45,066 bases of DNA, taken from contig CACWXY010000067.1 in the NCBI GenBank assembly GCA_902764915.1, positions 1 to 45,066 on the forward strand, read 5' to 3'. Every line of letters starts with the position of its first letter. The stretch's first letter is position 1. Source of the stretch: an uncultured Eubacteriales bacterium (GTDB lineage: Bacteria; Bacillota; Clostridia; Christensenellales; Aristaeellaceae). Shown piece by piece: positions 26,359 through 40,799 of the stretch. The translations under genes were made by a program, and so were the position numbers. The notes beneath the pieces are model-generated. The model ran no database searches. It saw nothing but the letters and a program-made list of their open reading frames with translations, and was not told where the DNA came from.

Positions 26359-26577
26359 GAACAGATGAACATCATGCATCACGCAAGACAGCTCGGCTAT
26401 ATCCAATTGCATGACGCCATAGCCAGGCGGATGGATGCGGATACCGTTGCCATCCTCCGGGAACGCTGCCGGCGAGTGCTGCGGAAGTACTTCGGAGAAA
26501 ACACTGACTGTGATCCTGCGTAGCGGACAGCGCGGCGGGGCAGAATACCGGTAAGGCGAGGAAAGAAGGGGAAAGGC

Positions 26578-27300
26578 ATGCAGGATACGCTGCTGATTCG
26601 TGAAGTCCGCATGGACTGGGACAGGATCGCGCAGGACAGCTATCTGCGGCGCATTCCCGCTCTGTGCGGCAGAAGCACGCTTGCGTTCCATAAGGCGGTT
26701 ACCTTCTTTGCGGGCGAGAACGGCAGCGGTAAGTCGACGCTCCTGGAAGCAATTGCTGTCGCGGCGGGGTTTAACCCGGAGGGCGGAACCAGGAATTATC
26801 ACTTCTCCACCTATGACTCGCATTCCGCGCTCTGGAATGCCGTTCGCCTGGTGCGTGGCGTGCGCCCGCTACAGTGGGGCTATTTTCTGCGGGCGGAGAG
26901 CTTTTACAATGTGGCTACGCAGGAGGAAGCCTACAGCCGGGAACAGGGCGGCCGGCCGCAGCACTTTCATAAGCGGTCCCACGGCGAGAGCTTTCTGGCA
27001 CTGATGCAGGATACCTTCCGCGGGGAAGGCCTGTACATACTGGATGAGCCGGAGGCAGCCCTTTCGCCCCAGCGGCAGCTGACACTGCTTATGGAGATGG
27101 ATCGGTGCAGGCGGGCTGGGGCGCAGTTCCTGATAGCGACGCACTCGCCTGTTCTGCTGGGACTGCCGGATGCGGAGATTCTTTCGTTCGATCAGGGAAG
27201 TATTCAGCCGATCGCCTATGAGGAAACAGAGAGCTATCGGGTAACGTCAATGTTCATTGCGCATAGGGAACAGCTGCTGCGGCAGATTCTGGACGCATGA
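26578..27300 (+). CDS. AAA-family ATPase (ABC/RecF-like P-loop, AAA_21-type).
   Basis: Walker A is FFAGENGSGKSTLLEAI. Walker B and D-loop are GLYILDEPEAALSP. The H-loop is IATHSP. Confidence 0.7.
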   Translation: MQDTLLIREVRMDWDRIAQDSYLRRIPALCGRSTLAFHKAVTFFAGENGSGKSTLLEAIAVAAGFNPEGGTRNYHFSTYDSHSALWNAVRLVRGVRPLQWGYFLRAESFYNVATQEEAYSREQGGRPQHFHKRSHGESFLALMQDTFRGEGLYILDEPEAALSPQRQLTLLMEMDRCRRAGAQFLIATHSPVLLGLPDAEILSFDQGSIQPIAYEETESYRVTSMFIAHREQLLRQILDA

Positions 27301-27418
27301 GGCATACCGCGGAACGGGGCGTGACAGCGGGGCAGGGAAGAGCGAACAGAGACAACAGGAATGTGATATTCTATATATGAAGCATATGCGAGAGGAAAAG
27401 CCTTCGCAAAATAAACAG

Positions 27419-27446
27419 TTGACAATCACGGGAAAAGCAGTATAAT
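27419..27446 (+). promoter_or_regulatory. Consensus sigma-A promoter (TTGACA-16-TATAAT) for tRNA-Ser.
   Basis: The boxes are ttgaca at 27419 and tataat at 27441. The tRNA starts at 27474. Confidence 0.5.
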
Positions 27447-27473
27447 CTTTGCTACCGGCCAGCAGCAATGCGT

Positions 27474-27561
27474 GCAGAAGTACCCAAGTGGCCGAAGGGG
27501 CTCCCCTGCTAAGGGAGTAGGCGGGTTAAACCGCGCCCGGGTTCAAATCCCGGCTTCTGCG
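27474..27561 (+). tRNA. tRNA-Ser (anticodon GCT), class II with a long variable arm. CCA is not encoded.
   Basis: - The gene reads GCAGAAG-TA-CCCAAGTGGCCGAAGGGG-CTCCC-CTGCTAA-GGGAG-TAGGCGGGTTAAACCGCGCC-CGGGTTCAAATCCCG-GCTTCTGC-G.
- The acceptor stems pair perfectly. Confidence 0.85.
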
Positions 27562-27567
27562 CATCCA

Positions 27568-27610
27568 AACCTCGAGAACCCTGATATTTCGGGCATTCCC
27601 GAGGTTTTTC
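27568..27610 (+). terminator. Putative terminator after tRNA-Ser (CCTCG...CGAGG stem followed by TTTTT).
   Basis: The sequence is aacctcgagaaccctgatatttcgggcattcccgaggttttt. Confidence 0.4.
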
Positions 27611-27692
27611 TATTGCAAATTTGAGTAACACGTGATGACCGAATCGTACATCAAACATAGCCAAAAATCGATCATTTTGGCACGTTATTTTT

Positions 27693-27739
27693 CTATTGAC
27701 ACCTCTATTGACACCTCTATTGACACCTTATTGACACCT
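27693..27739. repeat. Tandem 12-bp repeat CTATTGACACCT x4, each unit containing a TTGACA hexamer.
   Basis: The sequence is ctattgacacctctattgacacctctattgacaccttattgacacct. Confidence 0.7.
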
Positions 27740-28180
27740 GAGCTATTTTATTTGAATGCCGTGAGATATCAGGATAAAAATAAAGAGGAGCCAATGAAAA
27801 TATGACGGTAGCGCACGGAAGACTGGAAAAATGGTGCCGGGAAGGCATATAAAGCTGTACTCAGTTGTGGAGTAGGTGAGAAAATTTAAAGTACAATAAA
27901 GTACAAAATCAGATCAGGGCTCATGGGCATATTGAACATAGAACGCATTTGAGAATAAAACAAGTGAAAAAAGATATTGCGGTTTCGACGTTGATAATGG
28001 ATTCCATGAGCATGCAGAAACATTGAAAAGCACCAGCCGGATGACTGGTGCTCGGATAGACATTATATGATCAATTGAGATGTATCAGGTAAGAACGAGG
28101 ACTTCATCATTCAGCCCGCGTTTTGAAAACAGGAATATGTTGAAACGACGAAACACATAAGAATTCGCTGCGATCCATGC

Positions 28181-28618
28181 TCAGTTCTTTTCATTTTTCA
28201 CTTTCCGGATCAGTTCACGGATTTGTTTTTCATCATTCGCTGTTTCCTTCACAGCCAGTCCGATGCCGTTGAAGCCTTTTACGGAGGCGTCACCTTCATT
28301 AGAACAACGCGCATATTCTACGTTTAATACGGTGGACACGGTGTGGATCCCCTTTTCATCCAAAGTCTTCAGCTTGTCGTACAGGTCCAGGAAACGATCA
28401 TCAAACAGAATGAGGCGGGAACTGAATGCCTGATGAATATTCAGCATGCCGCATATTTTCACAACGGTGTCATAGCCCATGGTTCCGATGCCTTTATTCA
28501 GCGCGTTCATGATTGTTGGGTAGGGGATTCCGCTTGCTTCTGAGAATTTGGAGATCGTGCCGTACTGCTGCCGGATTTCTGCTTTTATCAGATTTGTAAT
28601 GGTATCGATGGACGCCAT
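28181..28618 (-). CDS. HTH transcriptional regulator (phage-repressor-like N-terminal HTH; C-terminal domain unknown). Divergent from the SPFH gene.
   Basis: The protein reads MASIDTITNLIKAEIRQQYGTISKFSEASGIPYPTIMNAL.... A perfect RBS, aggagg, lies before the ATG at 28618. A minus-strand terminator hairpin is at ~28035–28062. Confidence 0.6.
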   Translation of the reverse strand: MASIDTITNLIKAEIRQQYGTISKFSEASGIPYPTIMNALNKGIGTMGYDTVVKICGMLNIHQAFSSRLILFDDRFLDLYDKLKTLDEKGIHTVSTVLNVEYARCSNEGDASVKGFNGIGLAVKETANDEKQIRELIRKVKNEKN

Positions 28619-28888
28619 CCTCCTTTCTATTCGTGCATGTTGACATTGTATCACCAAATAATATAATGGAAAACAGTTTGTTGATCACTTATGGTGAGGA
28701 TTGAAGGCCGAGGTGATATGGACGATCCGGTTGTTTGCCATGTACAGACAACTGTAATTTTACGATTCTCGTTGATGAATCCTGAGTATAACATTATAAT
28801 AGTTCCTGACGCAGAGACACATTTCATGATTGTGTCTCGAAGACAGAAAAATACAAATATACAGCCCCATGCAGTATATCTCATTTCC

Positions 28889-30691
28889 ATGGAAACATAC
28901 AGCAATTTCTGCATTTGTCACAATTATGCTGAGGCAAGCAAAGGCTTTTTTGCAAGCAGGCGCATCCGCTGTGCCTGCGGGAATATCATCGATGTCAAAA
29001 CCGATCGAATGGCTACCATGACCTGTCCTTCATGCGGTAATGATGTGGTATATGATCAGGCAAAGGGCCGGGATGCCAAATGCCCGGTCTGTCATGCAAA
29101 CCTGATTTCCGATGCGTCCTTCAGCAACCTGGTTCATTTCCGCTGTGCCACCTGCGGCTGCCAGCTGCATGCCGACAAGGCGGCTGCCACAATCACCTGC
29201 CCGGTGTGCGACGCTGTCAGTGATGTGCAGCAGGAGCTCAAAAAGGCGGAAATGCGCGAGCAGGGGATCCCCGCGGTCATCAGCTATGAAGGGGACAATA
29301 CTGTCTTTGTGTGGAAGCATCCCATGACGGACTTTGTCACAGGCAGCCAGCTGATCGTTCATGAGAGCCAGGAAGCAGTCTTCTTCCGCAATGGAGAAGC
29401 ACTGGATTCGTTTGGCCCCGGCCGTTATACCCTGGAGACAGGGATCCTTCCGAAAATGAATCAGCTGTACCGTATACCGGTCCAGGGACAGCCCTTCCAT
29501 GCGGAGGTCTATTTCGTCAACCTGACCACCCAGATGGGAATCAAATGGGGGACCGCCAGCAAGGTGGGACTCTTTGATCCGGCCACAGGGCTGCATGTGG
29601 AACTGGGCGCCTCCGGCTCCTTTAACCTGCGCGTGACAGATCCCAGAAAACTGCTGATCAAGCTGGTCGGTACGACAGGCAGTCTCACCCAGCGCGATCT
29701 GTACGACAGCGGGAATACAGGGGTCTCCGCGGGCGCGTCCACAGGCGTTCAGAAGGGCTACTTCCGCACCATGATTGCCACCAGGGTCAAGGGAAACCTG
29801 GCCAGGATCATCAAGACGAATCAGTTCAATGTGCTGGAACTGGATGAACATGTGGATAGCATCAGTACGGCGCTGAAGGATGCCATCAATCCGGAACTCG
29901 AGGAATATGGCCTTGAGATGCCGGAGTTCTATGTGGCCAATATTGTCACTCCGGACGATGATCCCAACTTCCGCCGGCTGAAACAGCAGCACGCGGAAAT
30001 GTATCTGAAAGTCCGGGAGGAAGCAATCCGCAAGGCAGAAGCGGAAGCCGCGTTTGAACGCAAGGCTGTGGAAGCCCAGACGGCGGCCCGCATGAAAGTG
30101 ATCGGCGCACAGGGCGAAGCGGATGCGGCCCGTATTACCGGACAGGCACAGGCGGACGTGTACCGTATGCAGGCTGAGGCAGAAGCACAGGAAATGCGCA
30201 TGAAGGGATACACATACCAGCAGGAGACAGCACGTCAGGTGGGCGTCGAGGCCATGCGCAATGGCGGAGGTGCAGGTGTCACCGGTATCGCAGGCGAAGC
30301 GATGCAGCTGGGTGTGGGCCTTGGCGCTGTGGGCGGTGTGATTGGCATGACCCGTGAGGCGATTCAGCCGATGATGCAGTCTGTTGGAGAGATGGCACAG
30401 CCTGCCGGGACGCAGCCTGTCGGGACGCAGCCTGCCGCGGCCCAGCCGGAGAGCTGGAACTGTACGTGCGGCAAGACCGGTATTACCAGCAGATTCTGCC
30501 CGGAGTGCGGCGCGAAGAAACCGGAACCGCCCAAGCCCTGGGACTGCAGCTGCGGGGAGAAGGGCATTACCAGCAAATTCTGCCCCAACTGTGGTGCGAA
30601 ACGACCGGAGACCTGGGACTGCCCAGCCTGCGGTGCAAAGAGACTGAGCGGCAAGTTCTGCCCGGAGTGCGGCGCGAAGAAGCCTGAATAA
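28889..30691 (+). CDS. SPFH/band-7 (YdjI-like, 'virion core protein' type) protein with N-terminal zinc ribbons and three C-terminal zinc-ribbon repeats.
   Basis: - The N-terminus has CxxC pairs: CPSCGNDVV...CPVCHANLI, CATCGCQ...CPVCDAV.
- The central region is an SPFH-like beta/alpha core plus a long Ala/Glu/Gln coiled coil: ISYEGDNTVFVWKHPMTDFVTGSQLIVHESQEAVFFRNGEALDSFGPGRYTLETG....
- The C-terminus has three repeats of W(N/D)CxCG(K/E)xGITS(R/K)FCPxCGAK.
- The start is uncertain: ATG at 28889 or 29009. The ORF-track start at 28691 lies in AT-rich promoter DNA. Confidence 0.7.
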   Translation: METYSNFCICHNYAEASKGFFASRRIRCACGNIIDVKTDRMATMTCPSCGNDVVYDQAKGRDAKCPVCHANLISDASFSNLVHFRCATCGCQLHADKAAATITCPVCDAVSDVQQELKKAEMREQGIPAVISYEGDNTVFVWKHPMTDFVTGSQLIVHESQEAVFFRNGEALDSFGPGRYTLETGILPKMNQLYRIPVQGQPFHAEVYFVNLTTQMGIKWGTASKVGLFDPATGLHVELGASGSFNLRVTDPRKLLIKLVGTTGSLTQRDLYDSGNTGVSAGASTGVQKGYFRTMIATRVKGNLARIIKTNQFNVLELDEHVDSISTALKDAINPELEEYGLEMPEFYVANIVTPDDDPNFRRLKQQHAEMYLKVREEAIRKAEAEAAFERKAVEAQTAARMKVIGAQGEADAARITGQAQADVYRMQAEAEAQEMRMKGYTYQQETARQVGVEAMRNGGGAGVTGIAGEAMQLGVGLGAVGGVIGMTREAIQPMMQSVGEMAQPAGTQPVGTQPAAAQPESWNCTCGKTGITSRFCPECGAKKPEPPKPWDCSCGEKGITSKFCPNCGAKRPETWDCPACGAKRLSGKFCPECGAKKPE

Positions 30692-30866
30692 GAGAAACAG
30701 TGGATGGCTTGCAACGGCGAGAACCACATAGTTCTGAAGAACCAAAACCAGTACTGTGATGGATAAGTCCCGATGCTTTCTGTTTTCAGGATTACCACGC
30801 GAAGCAATATGCAGACGATGTCTTCAGAATAAGTTAGACATAGTATGACTTCAAGGAGAAAATACG

Positions 30867-33452
30867 ATGGCAGCATTGACCTGTAAGATGTGCGGCGGAA
30901 ACCTGGTGCTGACAGCAGACAGCAACGTCTGTGAGTGTGAATTCTGCGGAACCCGGCAAACAGTGCCCAATGCGGACAATGAGAAGAAGACCACACTCTT
31001 TAACGAGGCGAACCGTCTGCGGATGAACGCAGAATTTGATAAGGCGGCAGCAGTGTACGAGAGCATTGTCGCTGAATTCCCGGAGGAGGCTGAGGCCTAC
31101 TGGGGCCTTTGTCTGTGTACTTACGGCATTGAGTATGTGGATGATCCTGCAACGGGAGAAAAGAAACCCACCTGTCATCGGACGATGCCGCTGTCCATTA
31201 TGGAGGACAGCAATTTTGAGCAGGCCTGTGACTGTGCGGATGTTGTCGCCCGGCGGGTCTACCGGGATGAGGCAAAGGCCATTGACCGCATTCAGAAGGA
31301 TATCCTGTCCATCGTGAGTAACGAAGCGCCTTATGACGTATTTATCTGCTACAAGGAGACCAGTGAGGAAGGCAGCCGTACAGAGGACAGTGTGCTGGCA
31401 CAGGACATCTATGATGCTCTGACAGCAAAGGGACTGAAGGTGTTCTTCAGCCGGATTACGCTGGAGGATAAGCTGGGACAGCAGTACGAGCCGTATATCT
31501 ACGCGGCGCTTGCCTCGGCAAAGGTGATGGTCGCGGTGGGTACACAGTATGAGTATTACGATGCCGTGTGGGTGAAGAACGAATGGATGCGGTTCCTGGC
31601 CATGATGAAGAACGACCGGACCAAGACGCTGATTCCCTGCTTCAAGGATCTGGATGCCTATGACATGCCCAAAGAGTTCAAGCAGCTGCAGGCGCAGGAC
31701 ATGGGAAAGCTGGGCTGGCTGCAGGATCTGACGCGGGGCATTCTGAAACTGTGCGGGAAAGAAAACGGCACTGTGGGAAACAGTGCGGAACATGGGCCGC
31801 AGTCAGTGGTGCAGCAAACAGTGATCGGCGGCAATCCCACAGCGGTGGGTCTGCTGCAGAGGGCGAAGCTTTTCCTGGAGGATCAGAAATGGGAAGAAGC
31901 AGATCAGTATGCGGAACGTGTATTGGATATCGAACCAATGAACGCGGAAGCGTATCTGGTAAAGCTGATGGCGGAACTGAATGTCAGCAAGGAAGAAGCA
32001 CTGGCAGAACAGAAAATGCCTTTTGGTCAGTATGACAATTATCAAAAAGCTGTTCGTTTTGCGGATGAGGCGCGGAAGCAGCAGATCAAAGCGTTGAACG
32101 AAAAGGTGGAACAGCGCTACAGAGAAGAAAAAGAAAGGGCAGAAAACGCTCGAAAAACAGCCGTATTGGAAAAAGCAAAGACTGCATTGAAAGCGGCAGA
32201 ATCGCTGGAAGAATGCCAGGCGGTAACAGATATGCTGGGATCCATTGCCGGTTTTGCTGGCGTGACGGATATCATGGCGGGATGCACAGCAAAAGCTGCT
32301 GAAATCGAAGCGGTTAATGCTCGAATTGCAACAATGGAAACCGAATTAAAGGAGCAGCAGGAGAGATATCAGCAGGCATCAGAAAAAGCAATGGTTATTC
32401 ATCGTCAGCTCCAAGATACAGAAAAGGACAGAGACCGAATCGCTGCGTTACTGAAGAATGCCGAAAATGAGCTGAGCAATCTTCGGGGGCTTTTCACAGG
32501 AAAAAAGAGAGCAGAATTGGAGGCGGTAATCGCAACGAAAAGCAAAGAGCTCGCTAATGTTGAGGACCAGCTGGCAAAGGAGCAGTACGCTTACCAAACC
32601 GCACAAAACGGAATTCCTGAACAGCCAAACGAAACAGAAGTGAAATACATTATTGCAAACGAATATATGCAGGCCGGTCTTTATCGGAAAGCCTATAAGC
32701 GGTATAAACAGATTGTGGGATATAAAGACGTTGAAAGTCTGTTGAAAGATGATGATAATCTTGCAGCAGCAGTAGCAGCGGCACAGGAAGCAAAACGTGC
32801 ATCTTATCGCAATGTAGGGGGTTACGCAGTTTTTGGAAGTTATCCTCAAACTGCTGACGGTGTAGACAGCACTCCCATTGAGTGGCTTGTGCTGGACTAT
32901 GATGCGGAAAAGGACTGTGCATTGCTTATCAGTCGATACGGATTGGATGCGCAGCCATACAATAAAGAATGGACAAGCATTACTTGGGAACAGTGCACGC
33001 TGCGGACTTGGCTGAATGATACATTCCTGAACAAGGCATTTACAGCGCAGGAACAAACAGGAATTCTGGTGACCAACGTAGACAACAGCAGCAGTCAGGG
33101 ATACAGCAAGTGGAGTACCAGTGGAGGAAACAATACACAGGACAGGATTTTCCTGTTGAGCTATGCGGAGGCGAACAAGTATCTTGATGTTACGCATGAT
33201 AACAGTAACAACATGAAATCGAGAGTAGCACCGACAAACTATGCGAAAAAGCAGGGAGCCGTGACATGCAGCGACGACAAAACTGCGGATGGTGCAGCTG
33301 CAGGGCAGTGGTGGCTGCGTTCCCCCGGCTACTATCAGAGCCATGCCGCGCTCGTGTTCTGCGTCGGCTCTCTCGTCAACAGCAATGCCAGCGATGAAAA
33401 TGGTTGTGTTCGCCCTGCTTTGTGGATCAATCTGGAATCTGATATCTTCTGA
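30867..33452 (+). CDS. Zinc-ribbon / TIR-domain / coiled-coil / C-type-lectin-fold protein. This is the DGR target (variable) protein.
   Basis: - N-terminus: the zinc ribbon MAALTCKMCGGNLVLTADSNVCECEFCGTRQTV.
- TIR domain at aa ~156–290: YDVFICYKETSEEGSRTEDSVLAQDIYDALTAKGLKVFFSRITLEDKLGQQ...VMVAVGTQYEYYDAVWVKNEWMRFL. It has the DVFISY-like betaA, the G-L-K-VF alphaA/betaB and the W-x-x-x-E region.
- Coiled coil at aa 380–600.
- The C-terminal ~220 aa have a DUF1566/FGE-like C-type-lectin fold ending ...GQWWLRSPGYYQSHAALVFCVGSLVNSNASDENGCVRPALWINL. The VR is here.
- The RBS is aaggag. Confidence 0.8.
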   Translation: MAALTCKMCGGNLVLTADSNVCECEFCGTRQTVPNADNEKKTTLFNEANRLRMNAEFDKAAAVYESIVAEFPEEAEAYWGLCLCTYGIEYVDDPATGEKKPTCHRTMPLSIMEDSNFEQACDCADVVARRVYRDEAKAIDRIQKDILSIVSNEAPYDVFICYKETSEEGSRTEDSVLAQDIYDALTAKGLKVFFSRITLEDKLGQQYEPYIYAALASAKVMVAVGTQYEYYDAVWVKNEWMRFLAMMKNDRTKTLIPCFKDLDAYDMPKEFKQLQAQDMGKLGWLQDLTRGILKLCGKENGTVGNSAEHGPQSVVQQTVIGGNPTAVGLLQRAKLFLEDQKWEEADQYAERVLDIEPMNAEAYLVKLMAELNVSKEEALAEQKMPFGQYDNYQKAVRFADEARKQQIKALNEKVEQRYREEKERAENARKTAVLEKAKTALKAAESLEECQAVTDMLGSIAGFAGVTDIMAGCTAKAAEIEAVNARIATMETELKEQQERYQQASEKAMVIHRQLQDTEKDRDRIAALLKNAENELSNLRGLFTGKKRAELEAVIATKSKELANVEDQLAKEQYAYQTAQNGIPEQPNETEVKYIIANEYMQAGLYRKAYKRYKQIVGYKDVESLLKDDDNLAAAVAAAQEAKRASYRNVGGYAVFGSYPQTADGVDSTPIEWLVLDYDAEKDCALLISRYGLDAQPYNKEWTSITWEQCTLRTWLNDTFLNKAFTAQEQTGILVTNVDNSSSQGYSKWSTSGGNNTQDRIFLLSYAEANKYLDVTHDNSNNMKSRVAPTNYAKKQGAVTCSDDKTADGAAAGQWWLRSPGYYQSHAALVFCVGSLVNSNASDENGCVRPALWINLESDIF
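33308..33417 (+). other. DGR variable repeat (VR) at the 3' end of the target gene.
   Basis: The 110 bp are collinear with the TR at 36464–36573. Most mismatches sit where the TR has A (AAC/AAT codons). Confidence 0.6.
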
Positions 33453-33493
33453 TCTTTAATCTTTTGCGGGCAGTATACGGAAGAATGGGTAAA

Positions 33494-33630
33494 GCTGCAT
33501 GTGACTATGCAATTATGCGCCAATGAAAAGACGCTGCCCTGGATCAGGTGATGCAGATTACCTGCGTATATTATAAAAGCCATATATCTTGCTAGTTTTG
33601 CAGGATGTATGGCTTTTATGTTCTTATTCA
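33494..33630. repeat. ~140-bp direct repeat, copy A (~90% identical to 39664–39803). It contains a rho-independent terminator hairpin at ~33577–33622.
   Basis: The repeat reads gctgcatgtgactatgcaattatgcgccaatgaaaagacgctgccctggatcaggtgatgcagattacctgcgtatat...aaagccatatatcttgctagttttgcaggatgtatggcttttatgttcttattca. Confidence 0.7.
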
Positions 33631-34212
33631 CAATATAAGGAATGGATGCTTATGAAGACGGATGGCACACGATCCGTCCACGAATGCTTTGCATGAAGAG
33701 ATATCTATTAAATCACCATGTAAAGCAAGAAAATAGCTACGAGATCCCCATCTGATGTATGAGATTATTCATAAAATCAACAACAGAGGCGCGCAATTAT
33801 CCATAAAATCATCAATCAGACAGGAATAATATATAATGAACGAAAAGACAAAAGAGAACATCAAATAAATATCTACAAAGCATATACTATATGCATAATA
33901 AACGAATAAAATATTAACATAATAGCTATAATCTACTGCAATATCAAAGAAATATATAAAAATACCATGTCAAATGGTATCGACAGGTCTATTGCATCAG
34001 CAGTCCTGCCCATACAGTGTGGCCTATGGCTGACAATGGGACTTCCATAGAACATAAAGGATTACAGAATATGATAATAGCGCCTATATAGATACAAAAT
34101 ATCAATAAAATATATTAAAAATAGTAAATCATAATGATAGAAATATTGATATTTTCACATATTTCGCATACAATCTCAGCATGTGGTATTGCAACAGACA
34201 GGAGGCCACAAG

Positions 34213-34500
34213 ATGCAATTAATGGGACTCACAGTTGTGTTTACTGGGAAAATGCAGCGCTTGACCCGGGCACAGTGCAGAGAACTTGTGCTTTTGGCCG
34301 GCGGCATTGTTCAAAGCAATGTCAGCAGATATACAGATATCCTGGTTGTCGGCGCTTTTCGAAAAAGTCAACCGTGTGGTATCAGCTACAAACTGGAGCG
34401 AGCACTCTTCCTGTCTCGATCAGGATATCACATAAGAATAATACACGAGGATGAGTTTTATGAGATGCTGGGGATCCAACACTGGACCAACTGGTTGTGA
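34213..34500 (+). CDS. Stand-alone BRCT-domain protein (~95 aa).
   Basis: The protein reads MQLMGLTVVFTGKMQRLTRAQCRELVLLAGGIVQSNVSRYTDILVVG.... It resembles the LigA C-terminal BRCT (GxxxVxTG...R.E......GG.V..SVS.KTD.LV.G). The RBS is ggagg. It lies in a 30%-GC insert. Confidence 0.55.
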   Translation: MQLMGLTVVFTGKMQRLTRAQCRELVLLAGGIVQSNVSRYTDILVVGAFRKSQPCGISYKLERALFLSRSGYHIRIIHEDEFYEMLGIQHWTNWL

Positions 34501-34694
34501 AATCTTGATGCACAACAGCATGGTATGTCTTCCGTGCAGCCCTGTTGTGCAATTAGGCTGTCCGCCATTTATGGCACATGCAAAAAATACATTCACGACT
34601 CCAGGTGCACAAAAATCAGCTAGGAGAGGATGTGCATATAGAGTAAACCCTAGATGCGCACATCCAGTTAGTCCTGGAGAGGAGAAGATCGACG

Positions 34695-35276
34695 ATGGCA
34701 CGAATCGCATACATCAGAGTAAGCACAGAAGAACAAAACACCGCCCGTCAGGATTCCATGATGGATAAGCAGAATATCGATAAGACATTCACTGAAAAGA
34801 TCAGCGGTAAGAATACGGCACGGCCAGAGCTGCAGAGGATGCTGGAGTATATTCGAGAAGGTGACGTAGTCATCGTGGAAAGTTACAGCCGGTTAGCCAG
34901 GAGCACCAAGGATCTTCTCACACTTGTTGAGCAGATTCACGGTAAAGGTGCTGATTTCGTGTCTCTCAAAGAGAACGTAGATACCTCCACACCACAGGGA
35001 AAGCTTATGATGACAATCTTCGCTGGCCTTGCCCAGTTTGAGCGTGAACAATTGCTGCAGAGACAAAAAGAAGGCATCGCTGAAGCTAAAAAGCGCGGTG
35101 CCTATAAAGGTCGAAAACCCATCGTAATTGATGAAGATAGATGGAAGGAAGAAACATCTGCGTGGCGGGCAGGGAAACAATCCGCAGTGGTTACCATGCA
35201 GCATCTTGGGCTGAAACCACGCACATTCTACAATCGGGTGAAGGCGGAAGAATGTGACAGCGGTGGAAAAGAATGA
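34695..35276 (+). CDS. Small serine recombinase (resolvase/invertase family).
   Basis: The protein begins MARIAYIRVSTEEQNTARQ with a catalytic Ser at position 10. It has the ...GDVVIVESYSRLARSTKDL...KLMMTIFAGLAQFERE... core and a C-terminal HTH. The RBS is ggagaggag. Confidence 0.85.
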   Translation: MARIAYIRVSTEEQNTARQDSMMDKQNIDKTFTEKISGKNTARPELQRMLEYIREGDVVIVESYSRLARSTKDLLTLVEQIHGKGADFVSLKENVDTSTPQGKLMMTIFAGLAQFEREQLLQRQKEGIAEAKKRGAYKGRKPIVIDEDRWKEETSAWRAGKQSAVVTMQHLGLKPRTFYNRVKAEECDSGGKE

Positions 35277-35531
35277 GGGCACAAACTACTTTCATAGCGA
35301 TACAAGCATAATAGGAAGAAACGCATACACGGTAACCAATGTTTTGAATCCAAACGCTGCTCCATCGGTTATTATTGCGTCATCCGAAAATGAAGCGCTG
35401 GAGATTTATGCTGCGCTATATCATGAGATAACGATGCAAGTCGTAACTACTGAATTGCATTCCTTTCTTCGCGCTCAATTCTATCCTTTATGGTGTGTGG
35501 CGGATCTTAATTACGTGGATCCTAATTGATT

Positions 35532-35951
35532 CTATGCGGAACGCATGACCTCTTCATTCTCTGCAGATGGATCGAGCGCCTTTTCGATGTCGATGTAGTA
35601 ATAGCGGTCGATCTCCTTGCCCTTGTCCGTTTTCGTATGGACGGGCTTGTCGCTGTACAGAGCGTTGAAGATGGACGTCAGCCGCTGCTGGCCGTCAAGA
35701 ATAAGCTCACTGGGCACAGTCCCTTCAGGAACAACGGCGCCTTCGATGGGCTTGTACTTGAACTGAATCTCAGGGTTTCCATAGGTCAGGAACATTGCCG
35801 CGCCGACCGGGAAATTGTGGATGATGCTGGCAATCAGGGCCTTGATGCGGTTATCGTCCCATACCCAGCCGCGCTGAAAGTCCGGGAGCTGTGCTGCGCC
35901 TGACTGAACTGCCTTCATCAGATCCGTAATGGTTCTGTCGTTTGTTCTCAT
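35532..35951 (-). pseudogene. Truncated N-terminal DUF262 (ParB/Srx-like, GmrSD-type) fragment. The C-terminal nuclease half is absent.
   Basis: The translation has LPDFQRGWVWDDNRIKALIASIIHNFPVG...LDGQQRLTS, the DUF262 hallmark (DGQQR). Full-length members are ~550–600 aa. This fragment stops after 139 aa. Confidence 0.6.
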
Positions 35952-36056
35952 TGTCTAATTCTCGCTTTAGATGTACAATAATCACTCTCTTTAATCCTCT
36001 TTAATCCTCTTACTTTTTTAGCCAATTTAAGAGATTAAGAAGATTCATGCAATTAC

Positions 36057-36290
36057 GTGATGACCATCACACAGAAATCTCCAAAACAGTTCCGCTTCTC
36101 ATTGATTGGCCGCATGCAGGGCTATGTGATGGACATCGTGGAAGAACTGTATTATGCCAACGACATCTATGTCACACCCGCGAGCCGCTCGGGCTGGGCG
36201 CAGCGCCAGGCGCACCAGCGGAAAGCGATGGCGCCCCTGAAACTTCTCTCCTGGGTGGCGCAGGTCAGTATGGAACAGGGAGCGATTTAG
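36057..36290 (+). CDS. Small basic ORF immediately upstream of the TR. Weak candidate for the DGR accessory variability determinant (Avd).
   Basis: The only basis is position, upstream of the TR in a DGR. It is 77 aa, shorter than typical Avd (~110–130 aa), with no recognisable four-helix signature by eye. Confidence 0.2.
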   Translation: MMTITQKSPKQFRFSLIGRMQGYVMDIVEELYYANDIYVTPASRSGWAQRQAHQRKAMAPLKLLSWVAQVSMEQGAI

Positions 36291-36463
36291 CCGAAACAGT
36301 TTCAGCAGATCAGTGAGCAGTGCTGGAATACGCAGAATCTGCTTGGCGCGTGGATCATCAGCGATCAGAAGCGACTGAGCGGCGGAAAACAGAAGCAGGA
36401 ATCATCAGATCAGGGATCAGCACCCGAATAGGGTGTTCATCTGGGTACGGTATTGTACGGGTG

Positions 36464-36573
36464 GTGGTGGCTGCGTTCCCCCGGCACCAATCAGGACAAT
36501 GCCGCGAACGTCAACAATGACGGCTCTCTCAACAACAACAATGTCAACAATGACAGCGGTTGTGTCCGCCCCG
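36464..36573 (+). other. DGR template repeat (TR).
   Basis: Within this region, tggtggctgcgttcccccggcaccaatcaggacaatgccgcgaacgtcaacaatgacggctctctcaacaacaacaatgtcaacaatgacagcggttgtgtccgcccc is collinear with the VR. It is rich in AAC/AAT where the VR varies. A GC-rich structured spacer with a GNRA-looped hairpin (ctgcccgtGCGAacggcag) follows at 36590–36820. Confidence 0.65.
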
Positions 36574-36821
36574 TTTCCCCTTGCTTGCCAGCAGTCTGCC
36601 CGTGCGAACGGCAGCCAGTGCCCTGGGGAGAAGGAATACCGCTCCCTTTCGCAGGGAATTCCTCCGCAAGCGCTGCGGAGCCCTCGGAAAAACATGCCGA
36701 CGGAGGCCCGGACGGCGGGTGAAACAGACCGCCTTTCGCAATGCCTTTGGGACGCAGGGTTTGGCTTTATTCCTCTCGCCCTGCGTCCCCCGAGCGGCGA
36801 CTTTAAAACAGGAGGTTCATC

Positions 36822-37259
36822 ATGCTGAACATATGGTTTGGCGATATGCCGGATGTCATCTACGACACATCCACCTACTTCAGGCATTCTTACCGGGATC
36901 AATGGATCACCGACCCGCTGTCCGTGGAAATGATTCGTGATGTGGACCAGTCTGAAGTGGTCGATGCCAATCTGATTCAGAGCCCGGTCTTCGGTGCGAT
37001 TTCCCCTGTCCAACTGTCCGGTGGTGTCAAGACACTGATCCTGATCAGCAAGGTCAGGGATCAGGTCTTCAACGCGTCCAAATGCGGAGACAATTGCGCG
37101 AAGTGGCTGCTGAGGATCGCTGCAGACAGGAAAGTCGTTGTCAATCTCCGCCACCTTATGGACTTTGGGAATGAAGAGTTCAAAATCATGGTGATGAACA
37201 AAAAGAAGATTGCGCACAATATGCGGGAGCTCGTCCTGCTCGCGGGCGAGTATGTGTGA
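36822..37259 (+). CDS. Hypothetical 145-aa protein, first gene of the TR-downstream operon. It contains an LSGG-like motif (QLSGGVKTLILISK).
   Basis: The RBS is a strong aggagg. It lies 7 nt upstream of the ATPase gene. I recognise no family by eye. Confidence 0.5.
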   Translation: MLNIWFGDMPDVIYDTSTYFRHSYRDQWITDPLSVEMIRDVDQSEVVDANLIQSPVFGAISPVQLSGGVKTLILISKVRDQVFNASKCGDNCAKWLLRIAADRKVVVNLRHLMDFGNEEFKIMVMNKKKIAHNMRELVLLAGEYV

Positions 37260-37265
37260 GGCGTC

Positions 37266-38237
37266 ATGAACGGAAAGCATGCAGTAAAAGTCTCTGATAA
37301 GAGAGTTCGGTACAGCTTCGAGCTGGTGCGGAATATCACCGTCGTTCAGGGCAACAGCGGCACGGGCAAAACGACACTGTTTGATATGATATCTGCCTAT
37401 ACCAGGCTCAAGGAAAGAAGCGGCGTACAGATTGTCTGCGACAAGGCATGCGTTGCTCTTCACGCCGATTCAGACTGGCAGGCAAGGCTCAGAAGTATTC
37501 ATGACAGCATTGTCTTCATTGACGAGGATGCAGAATACATCGCGTCACATGCCTTTGCCTCATCCATCTGTCATACGGATAACTACTATGTCATCTTCTG
37601 CAGGGAATCCCTTCACGAACTCCCGTACAGTGTGGAGGAGATTTACGAAATCAAGACCAGTAAAAGGCTTCATACTTTCAAGAAGATGTATCGCCGGCAG
37701 AAGGATTATGTGTACGCCAAAGCTGAGGGAAGGGCAAAGACTTCTGCTTTACTGACAGAAGACTCGCATGCAGGGTATCAGTTTTACCTGCATCATTACG
37801 ATGGCACATCGGTTGTCTGCAGTTCTGCCGGCTCAAATTCAAGCATCTTTTCATGGCTTCAGGTGCATCACGATGAAAAAGTGTTTGTTGTTGCCGATGG
37901 TGCTGCTTTCGGCTCGGAGATGAACCGCGTCATGAAATTGCAGCACCAGTTTCCTGACAAGATCACCCTATGCCTGCCAGAATGCTTTGAGTGGCTGATC
38001 CTGCAATCGGGACTGATCGATATACCAGGCCTGGATGCACTGCTCGAAAGCCCAAGCGAAAGCATCGATTCACAGCGGTATTTCAGTTGGGAGAACTTTT
38101 TCGAAGAATACTTGATTCAGCAGACAGCCGGTACTCATTACGCATATTCCAAGTCGCAGATTCACAGGTTCTACACAGTGCGGGAGAACAGCAACAGAAT
38201 CGTAGCGCTGATCGCAGCCAATATGCCGAAATCATGA
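37266..38237 (+). CDS. P-loop NTPase (ABC/SMC-like Walker A).
   Basis: Walker A is VVQGNSGTGKTTLFDMI. A Walker-B-like SIVFIDEDAEYI is present. A C-terminal ~150-aa domain reads ...KVFVVADGAAFGSEMNRV.... The stop is 2 nt before the RT start. Confidence 0.6.
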   Translation: MNGKHAVKVSDKRVRYSFELVRNITVVQGNSGTGKTTLFDMISAYTRLKERSGVQIVCDKACVALHADSDWQARLRSIHDSIVFIDEDAEYIASHAFASSICHTDNYYVIFCRESLHELPYSVEEIYEIKTSKRLHTFKKMYRRQKDYVYAKAEGRAKTSALLTEDSHAGYQFYLHHYDGTSVVCSSAGSNSSIFSWLQVHHDEKVFVVADGAAFGSEMNRVMKLQHQFPDKITLCLPECFEWLILQSGLIDIPGLDALLESPSESIDSQRYFSWENFFEEYLIQQTAGTHYAYSKSQIHRFYTVRENSNRIVALIAANMPKS

Positions 38238-38238
38238 C

Positions 38239-39303
38239 ATGCGCAAGTTTGATTATGATAGGATTTGTGACTTTGGCAATCTCTACCGCGCCTATCTTGC
38301 TTCAAGACGAAGCAAGCGCGGTACTCGGGAAGTCATTCAATTCGAGATGAATGTAGGCCCAAATCTCTGTCAGTTACAGGAAGAACTCAGGAACCAGACT
38401 TATCGGCTTAGCGGTTACTACCACTTTACCATCCATGATCCGAAGGTCAGGGAGATCTACGCCCTGCACTATCGTGACCGGATTCTGCAGCACAGCCTTT
38501 GTGATAATGTGCTGGCTCCATATTTTGAGAATCATCTCATCTATGACAACGCAGCCTGTCGGACCGGAAAAGGAACCCTCTTTGCAATTAACCGGCTCAA
38601 CGGATTTATGCATGATCATTTCCGACAGCATGGAACTGACGGCTACTTTCTGAAGTGTGACATCCGCAAGTTCTTTGACAGTATTGATCATCAGATCTTG
38701 CAGCAGAGACTTGCGGCGATTGTTGACGATCCGAGAACGCTGCAGCTTCTCTTTCACATCATTGACAGTTACAAGGTGTCTCCCGGGAAAGGGATTCCCA
38801 TGGGGAACCAGACCAGCCAGTGGTTTGCCCTGTTTTATCTGGATCCGCTCGATCGTCTTGTCAAAGAAAAGCTCCGAATCAAATACTATACCCGATACAT
38901 GGATGACTGCATTCTGGTGCATCACAGCAAGGAGGCGCTCCACCAAGCTCTGTCTCAGATGCGGGAATTGGTTGAAAGCCTTGGGCTTTCTTTCAACGAA
39001 AAGACCCAGGTTTTCCCCATTGTTCACGTTGTTGAGTATTTGGGATGGCGTTTCTATCTGACGGAAACCGGCGCTGTGGTTCGCAGGCTGAAGAAGCACA
39101 GCAAGATCCGATGGAAGCATAGGCTGCGGAAGCTCAAGGCCCTCTATGCTTCAGGCGATGTAGAAGTCTCAAAGATCCTTGAAAGCGTTCAGAGCTTTCA
39201 TAACCACATGAGTTACGGGAATACATGGAAATTGTATCACGGCGTCATGGACAACTATGTTTTGACAAGAGAAACAAGAAACCCGAGAGTACCTCCTTCA
39301 TAA
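38239..39303 (+). CDS. Diversity-generating retroelement (DGR) reverse transcriptase.
   Basis: - The N-terminus reads ICDFGNLYRAYLASRRSKRGTREVIQFE....
- RT motifs: FTIHDPKVREIYALHYRDRILQHSL (1/2), FLKCDIRKFFDSIDH (A), GIPMGNQTSQWFALFYLDPLD (DGR-specific I/MGxxxSQ motif), YTRYMDDCIL (YxDD). Confidence 0.9.
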   Translation: MRKFDYDRICDFGNLYRAYLASRRSKRGTREVIQFEMNVGPNLCQLQEELRNQTYRLSGYYHFTIHDPKVREIYALHYRDRILQHSLCDNVLAPYFENHLIYDNAACRTGKGTLFAINRLNGFMHDHFRQHGTDGYFLKCDIRKFFDSIDHQILQQRLAAIVDDPRTLQLLFHIIDSYKVSPGKGIPMGNQTSQWFALFYLDPLDRLVKEKLRIKYYTRYMDDCILVHHSKEALHQALSQMRELVESLGLSFNEKTQVFPIVHVVEYLGWRFYLTETGAVVRRLKKHSKIRWKHRLRKLKALYASGDVEVSKILESVQSFHNHMSYGNTWKLYHGVMDNYVLTRETRNPRVPPS

Positions 39304-39376: not shown

Positions 39377-39663
39377 TGCTGTCATTTGGGTCTTGACAAC
39401 TACTCAGCCATGATACAGTTCTTCGTATAGGACGGTTGTCTTTCCGTGTGTTACTGCACCGTAGATAGAGGGGACAGGAATACAGCGCCTGCGCATTTCC
39501 AACATTGTCCCCCGTTCAATTTCTGTTGTGATCTTCGCCACAAATACCTGCGGGAACACACCATCTTACGACACCAACGGCTTACCTTTCGTAGTGACCT
39601 TTACGCATTTATAGTCACTGGTAAATGCTGTGCCCTGGAACAGTATACTGCATAGTGGATAAG

Positions 39664-39803
39664 GTTGCATGTGACTATGCAATTATGCGCCAATGAAAAA
39701 ACGATGCCCTGGATCAGGTGATGCAGATTACCTGCGTATATGATAATAGCCATACATCTTGTTTGATTTTTGCAGGATGTATGGCTTTTATGTTCTTATT
39801 CAA
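39664..39803. repeat. ~140-bp direct repeat, copy B (see 33494–33630). It contains a perfect terminator hairpin, AGCCATACATC...GATGTATGGCT-TTT.
   Basis: Seen directly in the sequence. Confidence 0.7.
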
Positions 39804-39814
39804 TTCTATCAATA

Positions 39815-40075
39815 TTAGGAATGTTGGATGGAACCAGGCATGTCGATCTTCCCGCGAATCACAGACAGATCTTCTTTGTGGCTGAGGTATTCGCGATACA
39901 GCCCCTGTTTCAATTGCCGTCCGATGCCTTTTGCAAGGATGGCGGCAAAAAGGTTGTGCAGGTTCTCAAATGCCTCTGTCTCTACGCTTTCGTAGCCGCC
40001 CTGATGCAGCGCCGTGAAAGCATAGGACAGCATGTAGTAAATGTTCCTGATGAAGATACTCTTATCCTTCGTCAT
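39815..40075 (-). pseudogene. N-terminal fragment (86 aa) of an McrC-like subunit of the McrBC restriction system.
   Basis: The fragment reads MTKDKSIFIRNIYYMLSYAFTALHQ...RGKIDM. It matches the conserved McrC N-terminus (E. coli: IPVRNIYYMLTYAWGYLQ...IKGRIEF). The remaining ~260 aa are missing. Confidence 0.55.
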
Positions 40076-40316
40076 TGAAACACACCACGCAGTATATTCT
40101 CCCAGCGCTGCAGCCTGCCTGCGTCATCGAACCAGTACTCGCTCAGCATGGGAAGAATCTTATCGAGCTCCGGCACCACCCGGTAAATGCGGAAGGGCTG
40201 ATCCCGCAACTGGCGGGATTCCACCATGGAGGAGGTCGCCTCGGATGCGAAGCCCTCCGTGTGATCCAGCACCAGGTAGGTGGTGGACATATACCCGTGC
40301 TTTCCGTCAGGGGCGG

Positions 40317-40721: not shown

Positions 40722-40799
40722 GGGGATCACCTCCAGATGGGTATGAAAATAGCCCCGTCCATGCTGAACGAGGCTTGAGTATTAAATCGCTGTAGACGA

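What the first reader, a model, noticed from the sequence alone, without database searches (positions are those of the whole stretch)
33308..36573. VR/TR mismatch spectrum is only partly adenine-specific, so the cassette may be decayed or the VR non-cognate
- My by-eye gap-free alignment of the 110-bp VR and TR gives about 16 substitutions at TR adenines (for example acc>tac, aat>tat, aac>ctc, aac>ttc, aac>gtc).
- It also gives about 9 at non-A positions (for example gtc>gtg, gac>gaa, agc>aat, synonymous c>t).
- Active DGRs show essentially 100% A-specificity.
- This suggests drift after inactivation, a TR that evolved, or a second cognate VR elsewhere in the genome.
- VR and TR also lie ~3 kb apart because of an intervening insert.
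Basis: seen in the sequence. Interest (0 to 1): 0.6.

Follow-up and report, generated by a model that had tools for sequence, protein, structure and literature searches.

The report
Decayed, mosaic diversity-generating retroelement
This is a diversity-generating retroelement (a system that rewrites one end of a gene from a template copy) that has stopped working: its helper gene avd is broken and its template no longer matches the gene it once rewrote, an ordinary, already-known fate for such elements.

Summary
A gap-free alignment of the VR (33303-33420) and TR (36459-36576) gives 29 mismatches in 118 nt: 16 at TR adenines and 13 elsewhere.

- **Adenine bias:** it is real (p=2e-5) but far weaker than in relatives with an intact avd (81 A : 7 non-A pooled; Fisher p=7e-5).
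- **avd is a pseudogene:** a 2.56-kb insert carrying a resolvase replaces its first 17 codons. An in-frame TAG (36288-36290) replaces Gln98.
- **The rest is intact:** the RT, the structured spacer RNA after the TR, and the target gene.
- **Origin of the non-A mismatches:** eight are sites where the VR, and the VR of a sister strain, keep the imprint of a different TR allele. Four are private VR substitutions. One is the repeat boundary.
- **Recombination:** a breakpoint sits at the 3' end of the TR. Divergence from the nearest cassettes is about 12% to its left and about 1.5% to its right.
- **VR variation:** the VR is identical in four other assemblies, whereas relatives vary at adenine sites.

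This is a known phenomenon of modest interest.

The parts
30867..33452 (+). DGR target gene (861 aa): N-terminal zinc-ribbon-like CxxC motifs, a TIR domain, a long helical/TPR-like middle, and a C-terminal DUF6273 (C-type-lectin-fold) domain that carries the VR. The ORF is intact.
   Evidence: Pfam: DUF6273 1e-28 (residues 685-855) and TIR_2 4e-12. Translation. A 95% identical orthologue with a different VR exists in sister strain L077.
33303..33420 (+). Variable repeat (VR), the last 50 codons of the target gene. It differs from the TR by 16 A-site and 13 non-A differences. Its private non-A substitutions are at 33306-7, 33388 and 33398.
   Evidence: Identical in assemblies L001, L002, L003/L075 and L076.
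33471..33644 (+). Direct repeat copy 1, which contains a 20-bp-stem terminator-like hairpin at 33573-33619. It starts where homology to relatives downstream of the VR ends, so it marks the left edge of the insert.
   Evidence: the repeat finder families D1 and D7 (88% then 100% identity), alignment, terminator scan, junction comparison with L059/L063.
33484..36047 (.). A 2.56-kb insert absent from all relatives. It holds a small ORF (34183-34500), a serine recombinase/resolvase (34695-35276, +), a 91-aa ORF (35254-35529) and a GmrSD_N nuclease fragment (35532-35951, -). It replaces the intergenic region and the first 17 codons of avd.
   Evidence: Pfam Resolvase 1e-44; PADLOC HEC-05/GmrSD-like match for the fragment; synteny breaks at about 33483 and 36048 against L006, L007, L046, L059, L063, L071 and L072.
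36048..36431 (+). avd pseudogene (bAvd residues 18-144). The N-terminus is lost at the insert junction (upstream in-frame TAA at 36036-38), and a premature in-frame TAG at 36288-36290 stands where relatives have CAG (Gln98).
   Evidence: tblastn against intact 144-aa Avd proteins of L063 and L059, 81-83% identity; translation and DNA. The same sequence occurs in assemblies L001-L005.
36459..36576 (+). Template repeat (TR), 28 adenines, rich in AAC/AAT. Three states are private to it: C at 36487, G at 36495 and T at 36518. In every other family TR these sites are A, A and C.
36563..36599 (.). Recombination breakpoint at the conserved 3' end of the TR. To its left, divergence from L071/L072 is about 12%. 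To its right it is about 1.5%.
   Evidence: Mismatch density per 100 nt. avd dS 0.68 against RT dS 0.036 for the same pair.
36577..36795 (+). Spacer downstream of the TR: a conserved structured RNA, the counterpart of the Sp region of the DGR RNA. It is intact here.
   Evidence: Alignment of 11 relatives and RNAalifold: 63 pairs, 20 with compensatory changes. No Rfam family matches.
36822..38237 (+). A two-gene module lodged between the spacer and the RT: DUF4869 (36822-37259) and a P-loop ATPase (37266-38237). The block 36852-38224 is missing from L059/L063, which keep only the first ~12 codons of DUF4869.
   Evidence: Pfam DUF4869 4e-54; synteny; remnant in L059/L063; dN/dS 0.14-0.17 against L006; the same gene pair stands alone in a housekeeping context in L081-L086.
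38239..39303 (+). DGR-type reverse transcriptase (354 aa), an intact ORF with IPMGNQTSQ and YMDD motifs.
   Evidence: Pfam RVT_1 5e-23; translation; dN/dS 0.05-0.2 against relatives.
39641..39810 (+). Direct repeat copy 2, the same terminator-containing sequence as 33471-33644. It lies about 220 nt beyond the right end of the cassette shared with relatives (39418).

Best explanation
This is a chromosomal DGR that no longer performs mutagenic retrohoming. Its layout is target-VR | insert | avd remnant - TR - spacer | DUF4869-ATPase | RT.

**How the mismatches arose.**
1. The VR was last rewritten by an earlier TR allele. That explains the 16 adenine-site differences, all at codon positions 1-2.
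2. The segment between the VR and the 3' end of the TR was then rearranged. A 2.56-kb resolvase-bearing insert removed the 5' end of avd, avd also acquired a nonsense codon, and the avd-TR segment now present comes from a diverged lineage. It joins the rest of the cassette at a recombination breakpoint in the conserved 3' end of the TR.
3. Without Avd the RT cannot make or deliver cDNA, so the VR is not re-synchronised with the present TR.

**What the non-A mismatches are.**
- Eight are differences between the TR that wrote the VR and the TR now present. Three of these TR states (C29, G37, T60) are private to this TR.
- Four are ordinary point substitutions in the frozen VR.
- One is the repeat boundary, which is universal in the family.

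**Shown:** the counts, the avd lesions, the breakpoint, the shared VR imprint, and VR invariance.

**Inferred:** that loss of Avd abolishes homing here (by analogy with the Bordetella phage BPP-1 DGR), the order of events, and that the TR was swapped rather than drifting in place.
For: **Spectrum.** 16 A and 13 non-A mismatches. Adenine enrichment is real (p=1.8e-5).

**Family comparison.**
- Members with intact avd and RT give 17/2 (L007), 20/2 (L046), 14/1 (L059), 14/2 and 16/0 (L063) and 16/0 (L080).
- The window is 16/12 over the same 115 nt. Against the first five pooled (81/7), Fisher p=7e-5.
- The two other members with many non-A differences also have a broken component. L006 has avd W86* and 18/14. 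L078 has an RT truncated after about residue 52 and 12/6.

**avd pseudogene.**. In the reconstituted BPP-1 DGR, avd nonsense mutants drop retrohoming to about 1e-9 (PMC12875486).

**Sister strain L077.** It is 95-96% identical to the window over 26158-33452 and has the orthologous target.
- Its VR shares A29, A37, G54, C60, T99, T108 and T114 with the window VR. Both VRs fit AAT at 97-99. All of these disagree with the window TR.
- The window TR states C54, G98, C99, C108 and C114 also occur in the TRs of L078 and L079. The L078 cassette is about 83% identical to the window's and the shorter L079 overlap about 86%. These are therefore old allele states and not recent in-place drift.

**Breakpoint.** It lies at 36563-36599.

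**VR invariance.** The VR is identical in L001, L002, L003 and L076, and the exact target protein is recorded on 8 contigs. In relatives with the same RT, VRs differ between samples. The only difference in 2.9 kb between L059 and L061 is at a TR adenine.
Against: - The RT, spacer RNA, DUF4869, ATPase and target ORFs are all intact, and the RT shows purifying selection (dN/dS about 0.2 against L071, from only 14 substitutions). The machinery is therefore not uniformly decayed.
- L072/L073 carry an avd frameshift yet show 17 A / 2 non-A, and a TR-specific T>C is mirrored in their VR. Either that lesion is very recent or Avd loss is tolerated in this clade.
- The four other assemblies are at least 99.8% identical to the window, so VR invariance among them is weak evidence.
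- No TR carrying the inferred writing allele was found anywhere, so the swap is inferred and not observed.
- The avd-TR segment is about 10% diverged from every relative found, so its donor lineage is not identified.
- Raw reads could not be examined.
Confidence: 0.75

Rival explanations
1. In-place decay only. The present TR is the direct descendant of the TR that wrote the VR, and after homing stopped both repeats simply accumulated point mutations. No template exchange took place.
For: - The window TR and VR share the rare states T69 and T93.
- Three TR states (C29, G37, T60) are private to this TR and look like recent substitutions.
- Four VR substitutions are private to this VR.
- Neutral divergence per lineage since the split from L077 (dS 0.077 in total) is of the same order as 3-4% change per repeat.
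Against: - Five of the eight sites where the TR differs from the VR imprint (C54, G98, C99, C108, C114) are shared with the TRs of L078 and L079, whose sequences are only about 83% (L078) and 86% (L079) identical to the window's. In-place drift would need five convergent changes.
- The avd-TR segment is about 12% diverged from L071/L072, while everything to the right of the TR is about 1.5% diverged. That pattern indicates recombination.
Confidence: 0.15
2. The VR is still serviced in trans by another DGR elsewhere in the same genome. That DGR's TR would match the VR at non-A sites, and the local TR would be irrelevant to this VR.
For: - DGRs can act on remote targets, and matching at all non-adenine sites is the accepted criterion for pairing (PMC5758913; PMC10907252).
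- The VR imprint (A29 A37 G54 C60 T69 T93 AAT97-99 T108 T114) is a coherent TR allele shared by two strains.
- Related genomes carry loci with several targets (L063).
- In L006 the VR fits the window's TR (7 non-A) better than its own TR (15 non-A). Pairings are therefore shuffled in this family.
Against: - The VR carries four private non-A substitutions absent from L077 and from every TR (33306-7, 33388, 33398). A recent rewrite would have erased them, at least the two inside the tract.
- The VR is invariant across assemblies.
- No matching TR was found in the window, in JGI metagenomes or in viral contigs. Those collections probably do not hold this genome.
Confidence: 0.08
3. The DGR is active, and the non-A differences come from non-canonical (non-adenine) mutagenesis by a low-fidelity RT or during cDNA integration.
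For: A published survey proposed that non-A-to-N differences, found in 23% of DGRs and up to 11 in one target, might reflect extra mutagenic capability (PMC5758913).
Against: - Near-identical or closely related RTs (94-98% aa in L059, L071 and L072) give 0-2 non-A differences.
- Six of the 13 non-A differences are at third codon positions.
- Eight are shared with the VR of another strain and coincide with allelic differences among family TRs.
- avd is broken.
Confidence: 0.02

Closest known systems
Diversity-generating retroelements of the Bordetella phage BPP-1 type (avd-TR-spacer-RT with a C-type-lectin-fold target)
   Same: - An RT with the DGR signature (IPMGNQTSQ, YMDD).
- An AAC/AAT-rich TR.
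- A VR at the 3' end of a target ORF in a CLec-type (DUF6273) domain.
- Adenine-biased differences at codon positions 1-2.
- An avd homologue directly upstream of the TR.
- A structured spacer RNA between the TR and the RT.
   Different: - avd is a pseudogene.
- 45% of differences are at non-A sites.
- No GC-rich hairpin follows the VR (z=0).
- An unrelated two-gene module sits between the spacer and the RT.
- VR and TR are separated by a 2.56-kb insert.
- There is no evidence of current diversification.
DGRs with non-canonical TR/VR differences, or with disrupted loci, described in surveys (Wu et al. 2018, PMC5758913; Thiohalocapsa DGRs, PMC10907252)
   Same: - Multiple non-A-to-N differences occur.
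- Targets that have stopped varying, disrupted DGR components, and VRs that match a TR other than the adjacent one are all reported there.
   Different: Here the count (12-13) is at or above the maximum reported in that survey (11). The cause can also be traced to specific lesions and to a recombination breakpoint, which those surveys left open.
DGR-diversified conflict-system sensors with TIR effector domains (PMC10907252, PMC7159879)
   Same: The target combines a TIR domain with a C-terminal DGR-diversified lectin-fold domain. It sits in a neighbourhood of defence-gene remnants.
   Different: - The published examples are mostly STAND-NTPase or MoxR/vWA systems of multicellular bacteria.
- This one is a zinc-ribbon/TIR/helical-repeat/DUF6273 protein next to an SPFH gene in anaerobic Clostridia. 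No NTPase domain was detected in it.
- No function was tested.

Membership tests
Diversity-generating retroelement (DGR) | A reverse transcriptase of the DGR clade, with the [I/L/V]GxxxSQ motif and the YxDD catalytic motif | tested here: met
   IPMGNQTSQ and RYMDDC are present and the 354-aa ORF is intact. RVT_1 5e-23. Homologues at 50-98% identity sit next to adenine-specific TR/VR pairs in dozens of loci.
Diversity-generating retroelement (DGR) | A TR/VR repeat pair, with the VR at the 3' end of a target ORF and differences concentrated at TR adenines | tested here: met
   118-nt repeat. 16 of 28 A sites changed against 13 of 90 non-A sites, p=1.8e-5. All A changes are at codon positions 1-2.
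Diversity-generating retroelement (DGR) | Near-exclusive A-to-N pattern: the VR matches the TR at essentially all non-adenine sites. This is the criterion used to call a cognate, active pair. | tested here: not met
   12-13 non-A differences, against 0-2 in relatives with intact components. Fisher p=7e-5.
Diversity-generating retroelement (DGR) | An intact accessory gene (avd) adjacent to the TR | tested here: not met
   avd lacks codons 1-17 and has a TAG at codon 98.
Diversity-generating retroelement (DGR) | IMH/IMH* boundary at the 3' end of the repeats and an inverted repeat downstream of the VR | tested here: inconclusive
   Homology ends sharply at repeat positions 116-118 in all family members. 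The differences at positions 108 and 114 could be IMH against IMH*. No stable hairpin lies downstream of the VR (-4.6 kcal/mol, z=-0.01). The stem-loop is not strictly required even in BPP-1 (PMC12875486).
Diversity-generating retroelement (DGR) | Ongoing diversification: VR variants within or between populations that carry the same TR | tested here: not met
   The VR is identical in four other assemblies of the same strain, and the exact target protein is on 8 contigs. Raw reads could not be examined. The strains are nearly clonal, so this test is weak.
DGR accessory gene classes (Avd, HRDC, MSL, CH1) | The DUF4869/ATPase pair belongs to a described accessory class or occurs specifically with DGRs | tested here: not met
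   - No literature mentions DUF4869.
- CH1 proteins are 160-169 aa with pI 4.7 and occur only without avd (PMC5758913). DUF4869 here is 145 aa with pI 6.3.
- The same gene pair occurs alone in a housekeeping context and the family has more than 5,000 homologues.
- Among the fetched RT relatives it is present only in this subclade.

The most novel reading that the evidence does not exclude
In this clade of gut and rumen Clostridia DGRs, the avd-TR module may be exchanged between cassettes by homologous recombination at two conserved sequences: the 3' end of the TR with its spacer, and the flank downstream of the VR. Targets would then be periodically re-templated by foreign TR alleles.

- The window and L006 would be snapshots of such swaps, each with a VR carrying the imprint of another lineage's TR.
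- Combined with the conserved pairing of an SPFH gene with TIR/DUF6273 targets, this would describe a DGR-diversified intracellular TIR sensor family in anaerobes, whose specificity evolves both by adenine mutagenesis and by template shuffling.
Probability: 0.2. Interest if true: 0.5.

Novelty: new member of a known kind. Interest (0 to 1): 0.3.

Why it matters
The main value is practical. Automated DGR finders accept or reject TR/VR pairs on their adenine-specificity. This locus shows what a strongly mixed spectrum (55% A) means when traced with relatives.

- **What a mixed spectrum means here:** a genuine DGR that has stopped homing, with a dead avd and a template that has been exchanged or has drifted.
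- **How to read such loci:** a sister-strain VR and the family's TR alleles can be used to decide which repeat changed at each non-A mismatch.
- **Caution on activity calls:** an intact RT ORF does not imply an active DGR.

The locus adds no new mechanism.

Two side observations may deserve follow-up in their own right. One is the TIR/lectin-fold targets sitting next to SPFH genes in anaerobic Clostridia. The other is a structured spacer RNA with covariation support that has no Rfam family.

Tried and rejected
- **Second cognate VR or TR in the window.** The 22-mer with up to 3 mismatches, and an adenine-masked scan of both strands, found only the known pair.
- **Cognate VRs written by the present TR in JGI metagenomes.** The pattern CCCCCGGCNCCNNTCNGGNCNNTGCCGCG returned three hits, all unrelated high-GC chance matches. 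The strain is evidently not in that collection, so the test says nothing.
- **The inferred writing TR allele in viral contigs.** Two masked patterns gave 0 hits.
- **IMH* differences as an explanation for the 3' non-A mismatches.** Active relatives (L063, L072, L080) are identical between TR and VR from position 100 to 115. At most positions 108 and 114 could be explained this way.
- **Hairpin downstream of the VR.** None beyond chance.
- **Known RNA families.** None in 28-42 kb at E<=0.1.
- **DUF4869-ATPase as a DGR accessory module, or as the cause of inactivation.** Rejected for three reasons.
  - The pair occurs alone elsewhere.
  - It has been under purifying selection within the cassette across dS>1.4.
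  - L071 and L072, which carry it, have near-pure adenine spectra.
  - My first reading, that it was inserted in the window's lineage, was also wrong. L059 and L063 retain its first ~12 codons, so they deleted it.
- **The resolvase elsewhere, to define a mobile element.** The exact protein occurs only in this same context.
- **My own coordinate error.** I first placed the avd stop codon at 36314-36316, in the wrong reading frame. It is at 36288-36290.
- **PADLOC on the module and the target.** Only weak P-loop and ThsB-like matches.

Full report
**1. The observation**

The two repeats are real. The repeat finder reports a 118-nt direct repeat, 33303-33420 against 36459-36576, at 75% identity and an offset of 3156 nt. 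The 22-mer GTGGTGGCTGCGTTCCCCCGGC occurs exactly twice in the window, against 0 expected.

A gap-free alignment gives 29 mismatches, 16 at TR adenines and 13 at other bases.

The adenine bias is genuine. Adenine sites changed at 16 of 28, non-A sites at 13 of 90 (p=1.8e-5). All adenine changes fall on codon positions 1-2, while six non-A changes are at third positions. No further copy exists in the window, even with TR adenines masked.

**2. Anatomy of the locus**

- **Target gene.** The VR is the end of an intact 861-aa ORF (30867-33452) with a TIR domain and a C-terminal DUF6273 lectin-fold domain.
- **Downstream of the TR.**
  - A conserved spacer.
  - DUF4869 (36822-37259).
  - A P-loop ATPase (37266-38237).
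  - A 354-aa RT (38239-39303) with IPMGNQTSQ and YMDD motifs.
- **Between VR and TR.**
  - A small serine recombinase (34695-35276).
  - A GmrSD-type nuclease fragment on the minus strand.
  - Small ORFs.
- **Wider context.** The surrounding genes are ordinary chromosomal genes plus defence-gene remnants. The nearest genomes are uncultured Oscillospiraceae/Clostridia MAGs.

**3. Relatives**

Exact-protein look-ups and one genome scan gave loci at several distances.

| Group | Loci | Relation to the window |
|---|---|---|
| Same strain | L001-L005, L075, L076 | at least 99.8% identical |
| Sister strain | L077 | 95-96% nt, orthologous target with a different VR |
| Near-identical from spacer to RT | L071, L072/L073, L074 | 96-98% identical |
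| Cassettes lacking the DUF4869-ATPase module | L059-L062, L063-L067, L080 | RT 84-94% aa |
| More distant | L006, L007, L046, L078, L079 | |

In all of them an intact bAvd gene (144 aa) ends about 30 nt before the TR, unless noted below.

**4. Mismatch spectra across the family**

Counts cover 115 nt, with the boundary positions excluded.

| Locus | A / non-A | Component status |
|---|---|---|
| L007 | 17 / 2 | intact |
| L046 | 20 / 2 | intact |
| L059 | 14 / 1 | intact |
| L063 (two VRs) | 14 / 2 and 16 / 0 | intact |
| L080 | 16 / 0 | intact |
| L071 | 18 / 1, plus one codon indel | intact |
| L072 | 17 / 2 | avd frameshift |
| L078 | 12 / 6 | RT truncated after about residue 52 |
| L006 | 18 / 14 | avd W86* |
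| Window | 16 / 12 | avd truncated, plus nonsense codon |

The window differs from the pooled intact set (81/7, from L007, L046, L059 and L063) at p=7e-5. A strongly mixed spectrum therefore goes with a broken component in this family, though not in every case (L072).

**5. avd is a pseudogene**

Homology to Avd begins at residue 18 (window 36048), exactly where synteny with every relative resumes after the insert. The upstream frame holds a TAA at 36036-38. At 36288-36290 a TAG replaces the CAG (Gln98) of relatives. The same sequence is present in five independent assemblies, so it is not an assembly error.

In the BPP-1 system, avd nonsense mutants reduce retrohoming to about 1e-9 (PMC12875486).

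**6. Which repeat changed at each non-A mismatch**

The VR of sister strain L077 agrees with the window's VR, and disagrees with the window's TR, at repeat positions 29, 37, 54, 60, 99, 108 and 114. Both VRs are also explained by AAT, not AGC, at positions 97-99. These eight sites therefore reflect the TR that last wrote the VRs.

Of the corresponding TR states:
- C29, G37 and T60 are private to the window's TR. Every other family TR has A, A and C at these sites.
- C54, G98, C99, C108 and C114 are shared with the TRs of L078 and L079. The L078 cassette is about 83% identical to the window's and the shorter L079 overlap about 86%.

Four differences (33306-7, 33388, 33398) are private to the window's VR. 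Position 116 is the repeat boundary in all members. Both repeats have thus moved away from the last homing event. For most TR-side sites, a different allele is a more economical explanation than convergent drift.

**7. Mosaic structure**

Against L071/L072 the window shows 8-17 mismatches per 100 nt from 36048 to about 36562, and 0-5 per 100 nt from there to 39400. For the same pair, avd dS is 0.68 while RT dS is 0.036. The breakpoint lies in the 3' end of the TR and the spacer, a stretch conserved across the whole family.

L006 shows the same kind of mismatch in another form. Its VR fits the window's TR (7 non-A) better than its own TR (15 non-A).

**8. Population evidence**

The window's VR is identical in L001, L002, L003 and L076, and the exact target protein is recorded on 8 contigs.

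In relatives, contigs with the same RT differ in the VR. The only difference in the 2.9-kb target between L059 and L061 is at a TR adenine. L063 and L064 differ mainly inside VR2, although the L064 copy may be an assembly collapse.

Because the window's strain is nearly clonal across samples, this evidence is supportive only.

**9. The insert and the direct repeats**

Relative to L059/L063, homology downstream of the VR ends at about 33483 and resumes at 36048. The insert begins with a ~170-nt sequence (33471-33644) that is repeated at 39641-39810, just beyond the right end of the shared cassette (39418). That sequence contains a strong terminator-like hairpin.

The two copies bracket a 6.2-kb unit made of the insert and the DGR core. 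This fits block insertion by a single crossover, or a duplication, but I could not resolve which. The resolvase was found only in this context.

**10. The DUF4869-ATPase module**

It lies between the spacer and the RT in the window, L006, L071-L074, L078 and L010. L059 and L063 keep its first ~12 codons, so they lost it by deletion. It has evolved under purifying selection (dN/dS 0.14-0.17).

The same gene pair occurs alone between housekeeping genes in L081-L086, and the family is large. I treat it as an autonomous passenger. I do not treat it as a DGR accessory or as the cause of inactivation.

**11. Conclusion**

The best-supported account has four parts.
- This is a genuine DGR that has ceased retrohoming.
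- The VR keeps the adenine-mutagenised imprint of an earlier template.
- The present template, attached to a dead avd, came from or diverged into another allele.
- Ordinary substitutions have since accumulated in the VR.

The phenomenon is known: non-A differences, disrupted loci and trans-matching VRs appear in PMC5758913 and PMC10907252. I therefore rate the finding as a well-documented but ordinary example.

Noticed in passing
33471-33644 and 39641-39810: Direct repeats of ~170 nt (88% identical over the first 129 nt, 100% over the next 35), each holding a 20-bp-stem terminator-like hairpin. They bracket the 6.2-kb unit made of the resolvase insert and the DGR core. They are absent from L006 and L077. 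They could mark block insertion or allow excision by recombination.
   Followed up: partly
36577-36795 (and the homologous stretches of L006-L009, L046, L050, L059, L063, L071, L072): The spacer downstream of the TR is a conserved structured RNA. RNAalifold predicts 63 pairs, 20 of them with compensatory double changes across 11 relatives. No Rfam family matches it. It is presumably the Sp element of the DGR RNA that recruits the RT.
   Followed up: partly
36822-38237; L081-L086 6001-7431: DUF4869 plus a ~325-aa P-loop ATPase form an autonomous two-gene module, with more than 5,000 DUF4869 homologues. It is found here inside the DGR operon and elsewhere alone between housekeeping genes. No paper in the searched library mentions DUF4869 and PADLOC has no model for it. 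Its function is unknown.
   Followed up: partly
28691-30691 (repeats at 30438-30688); L059 2283-4112, L080 3803-5605, L077 3065-4855: An SPFH/Band-7 protein lies immediately upstream of the TIR/DUF6273 DGR target in the window and in diverged loci, which suggests a conserved functional pairing. In the window it has a C-terminal array of zinc-ribbon repeats (39- and 84-nt tandem units). The repeat number varies between near-identical strains: 666 aa here, 601 aa in L001.
   Followed up: partly
L006 6903-7020 (VR) and 8217-8334 (TR): The closest species-level relative also has a mixed spectrum (18 A / 14-15 non-A) and an independent avd nonsense codon (W86*). Its VR matches the window's TR at non-A sites better than its own TR (7 against 15 non-A). 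Its own TR carries CGC>TAC in the conserved CVRP motif.
   Followed up: partly
avd codons 86-98: window 36288-36290; L006 about 8010; L072 about 2161: Three independent avd lesions (W86*, a frameshift near residue 95, and Q98*) in cassettes that carry the DUF4869-ATPase module all fall within a 13-codon stretch, leaving the N-terminal two thirds readable. This may be coincidence. It was not tested further.
   Followed up: no
35532-35951 (-), 39815-40730 (-), 26578-27300 (+): Defence-gene remnants and genes surround the locus: a GmrSD_N/HEC-05-like fragment, McrBC-like fragments downstream of the RT, and an AAA_21 ATPase resembling AriA/PtuA/GajA. The region looks like a degraded defence island.
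   Followed up: partly
L010 1083-2143; L074 249-678; L078 4597-4924: Other members of the same cassette clade are also damaged: RT with three stops (L010), DUF4869 frameshift (L074), and RT interrupted after about residue 52 (L078). Decay seems common in this clade.
   Followed up: partly
L064 3294-3411 and 8821-8938: In L064 the two VRs of the two tandem target genes are identical to each other, whereas in the otherwise near-identical L063 they differ at many adenine sites. This could be an assembly collapse of paralogous ends or gene conversion between VRs.
   Followed up: no
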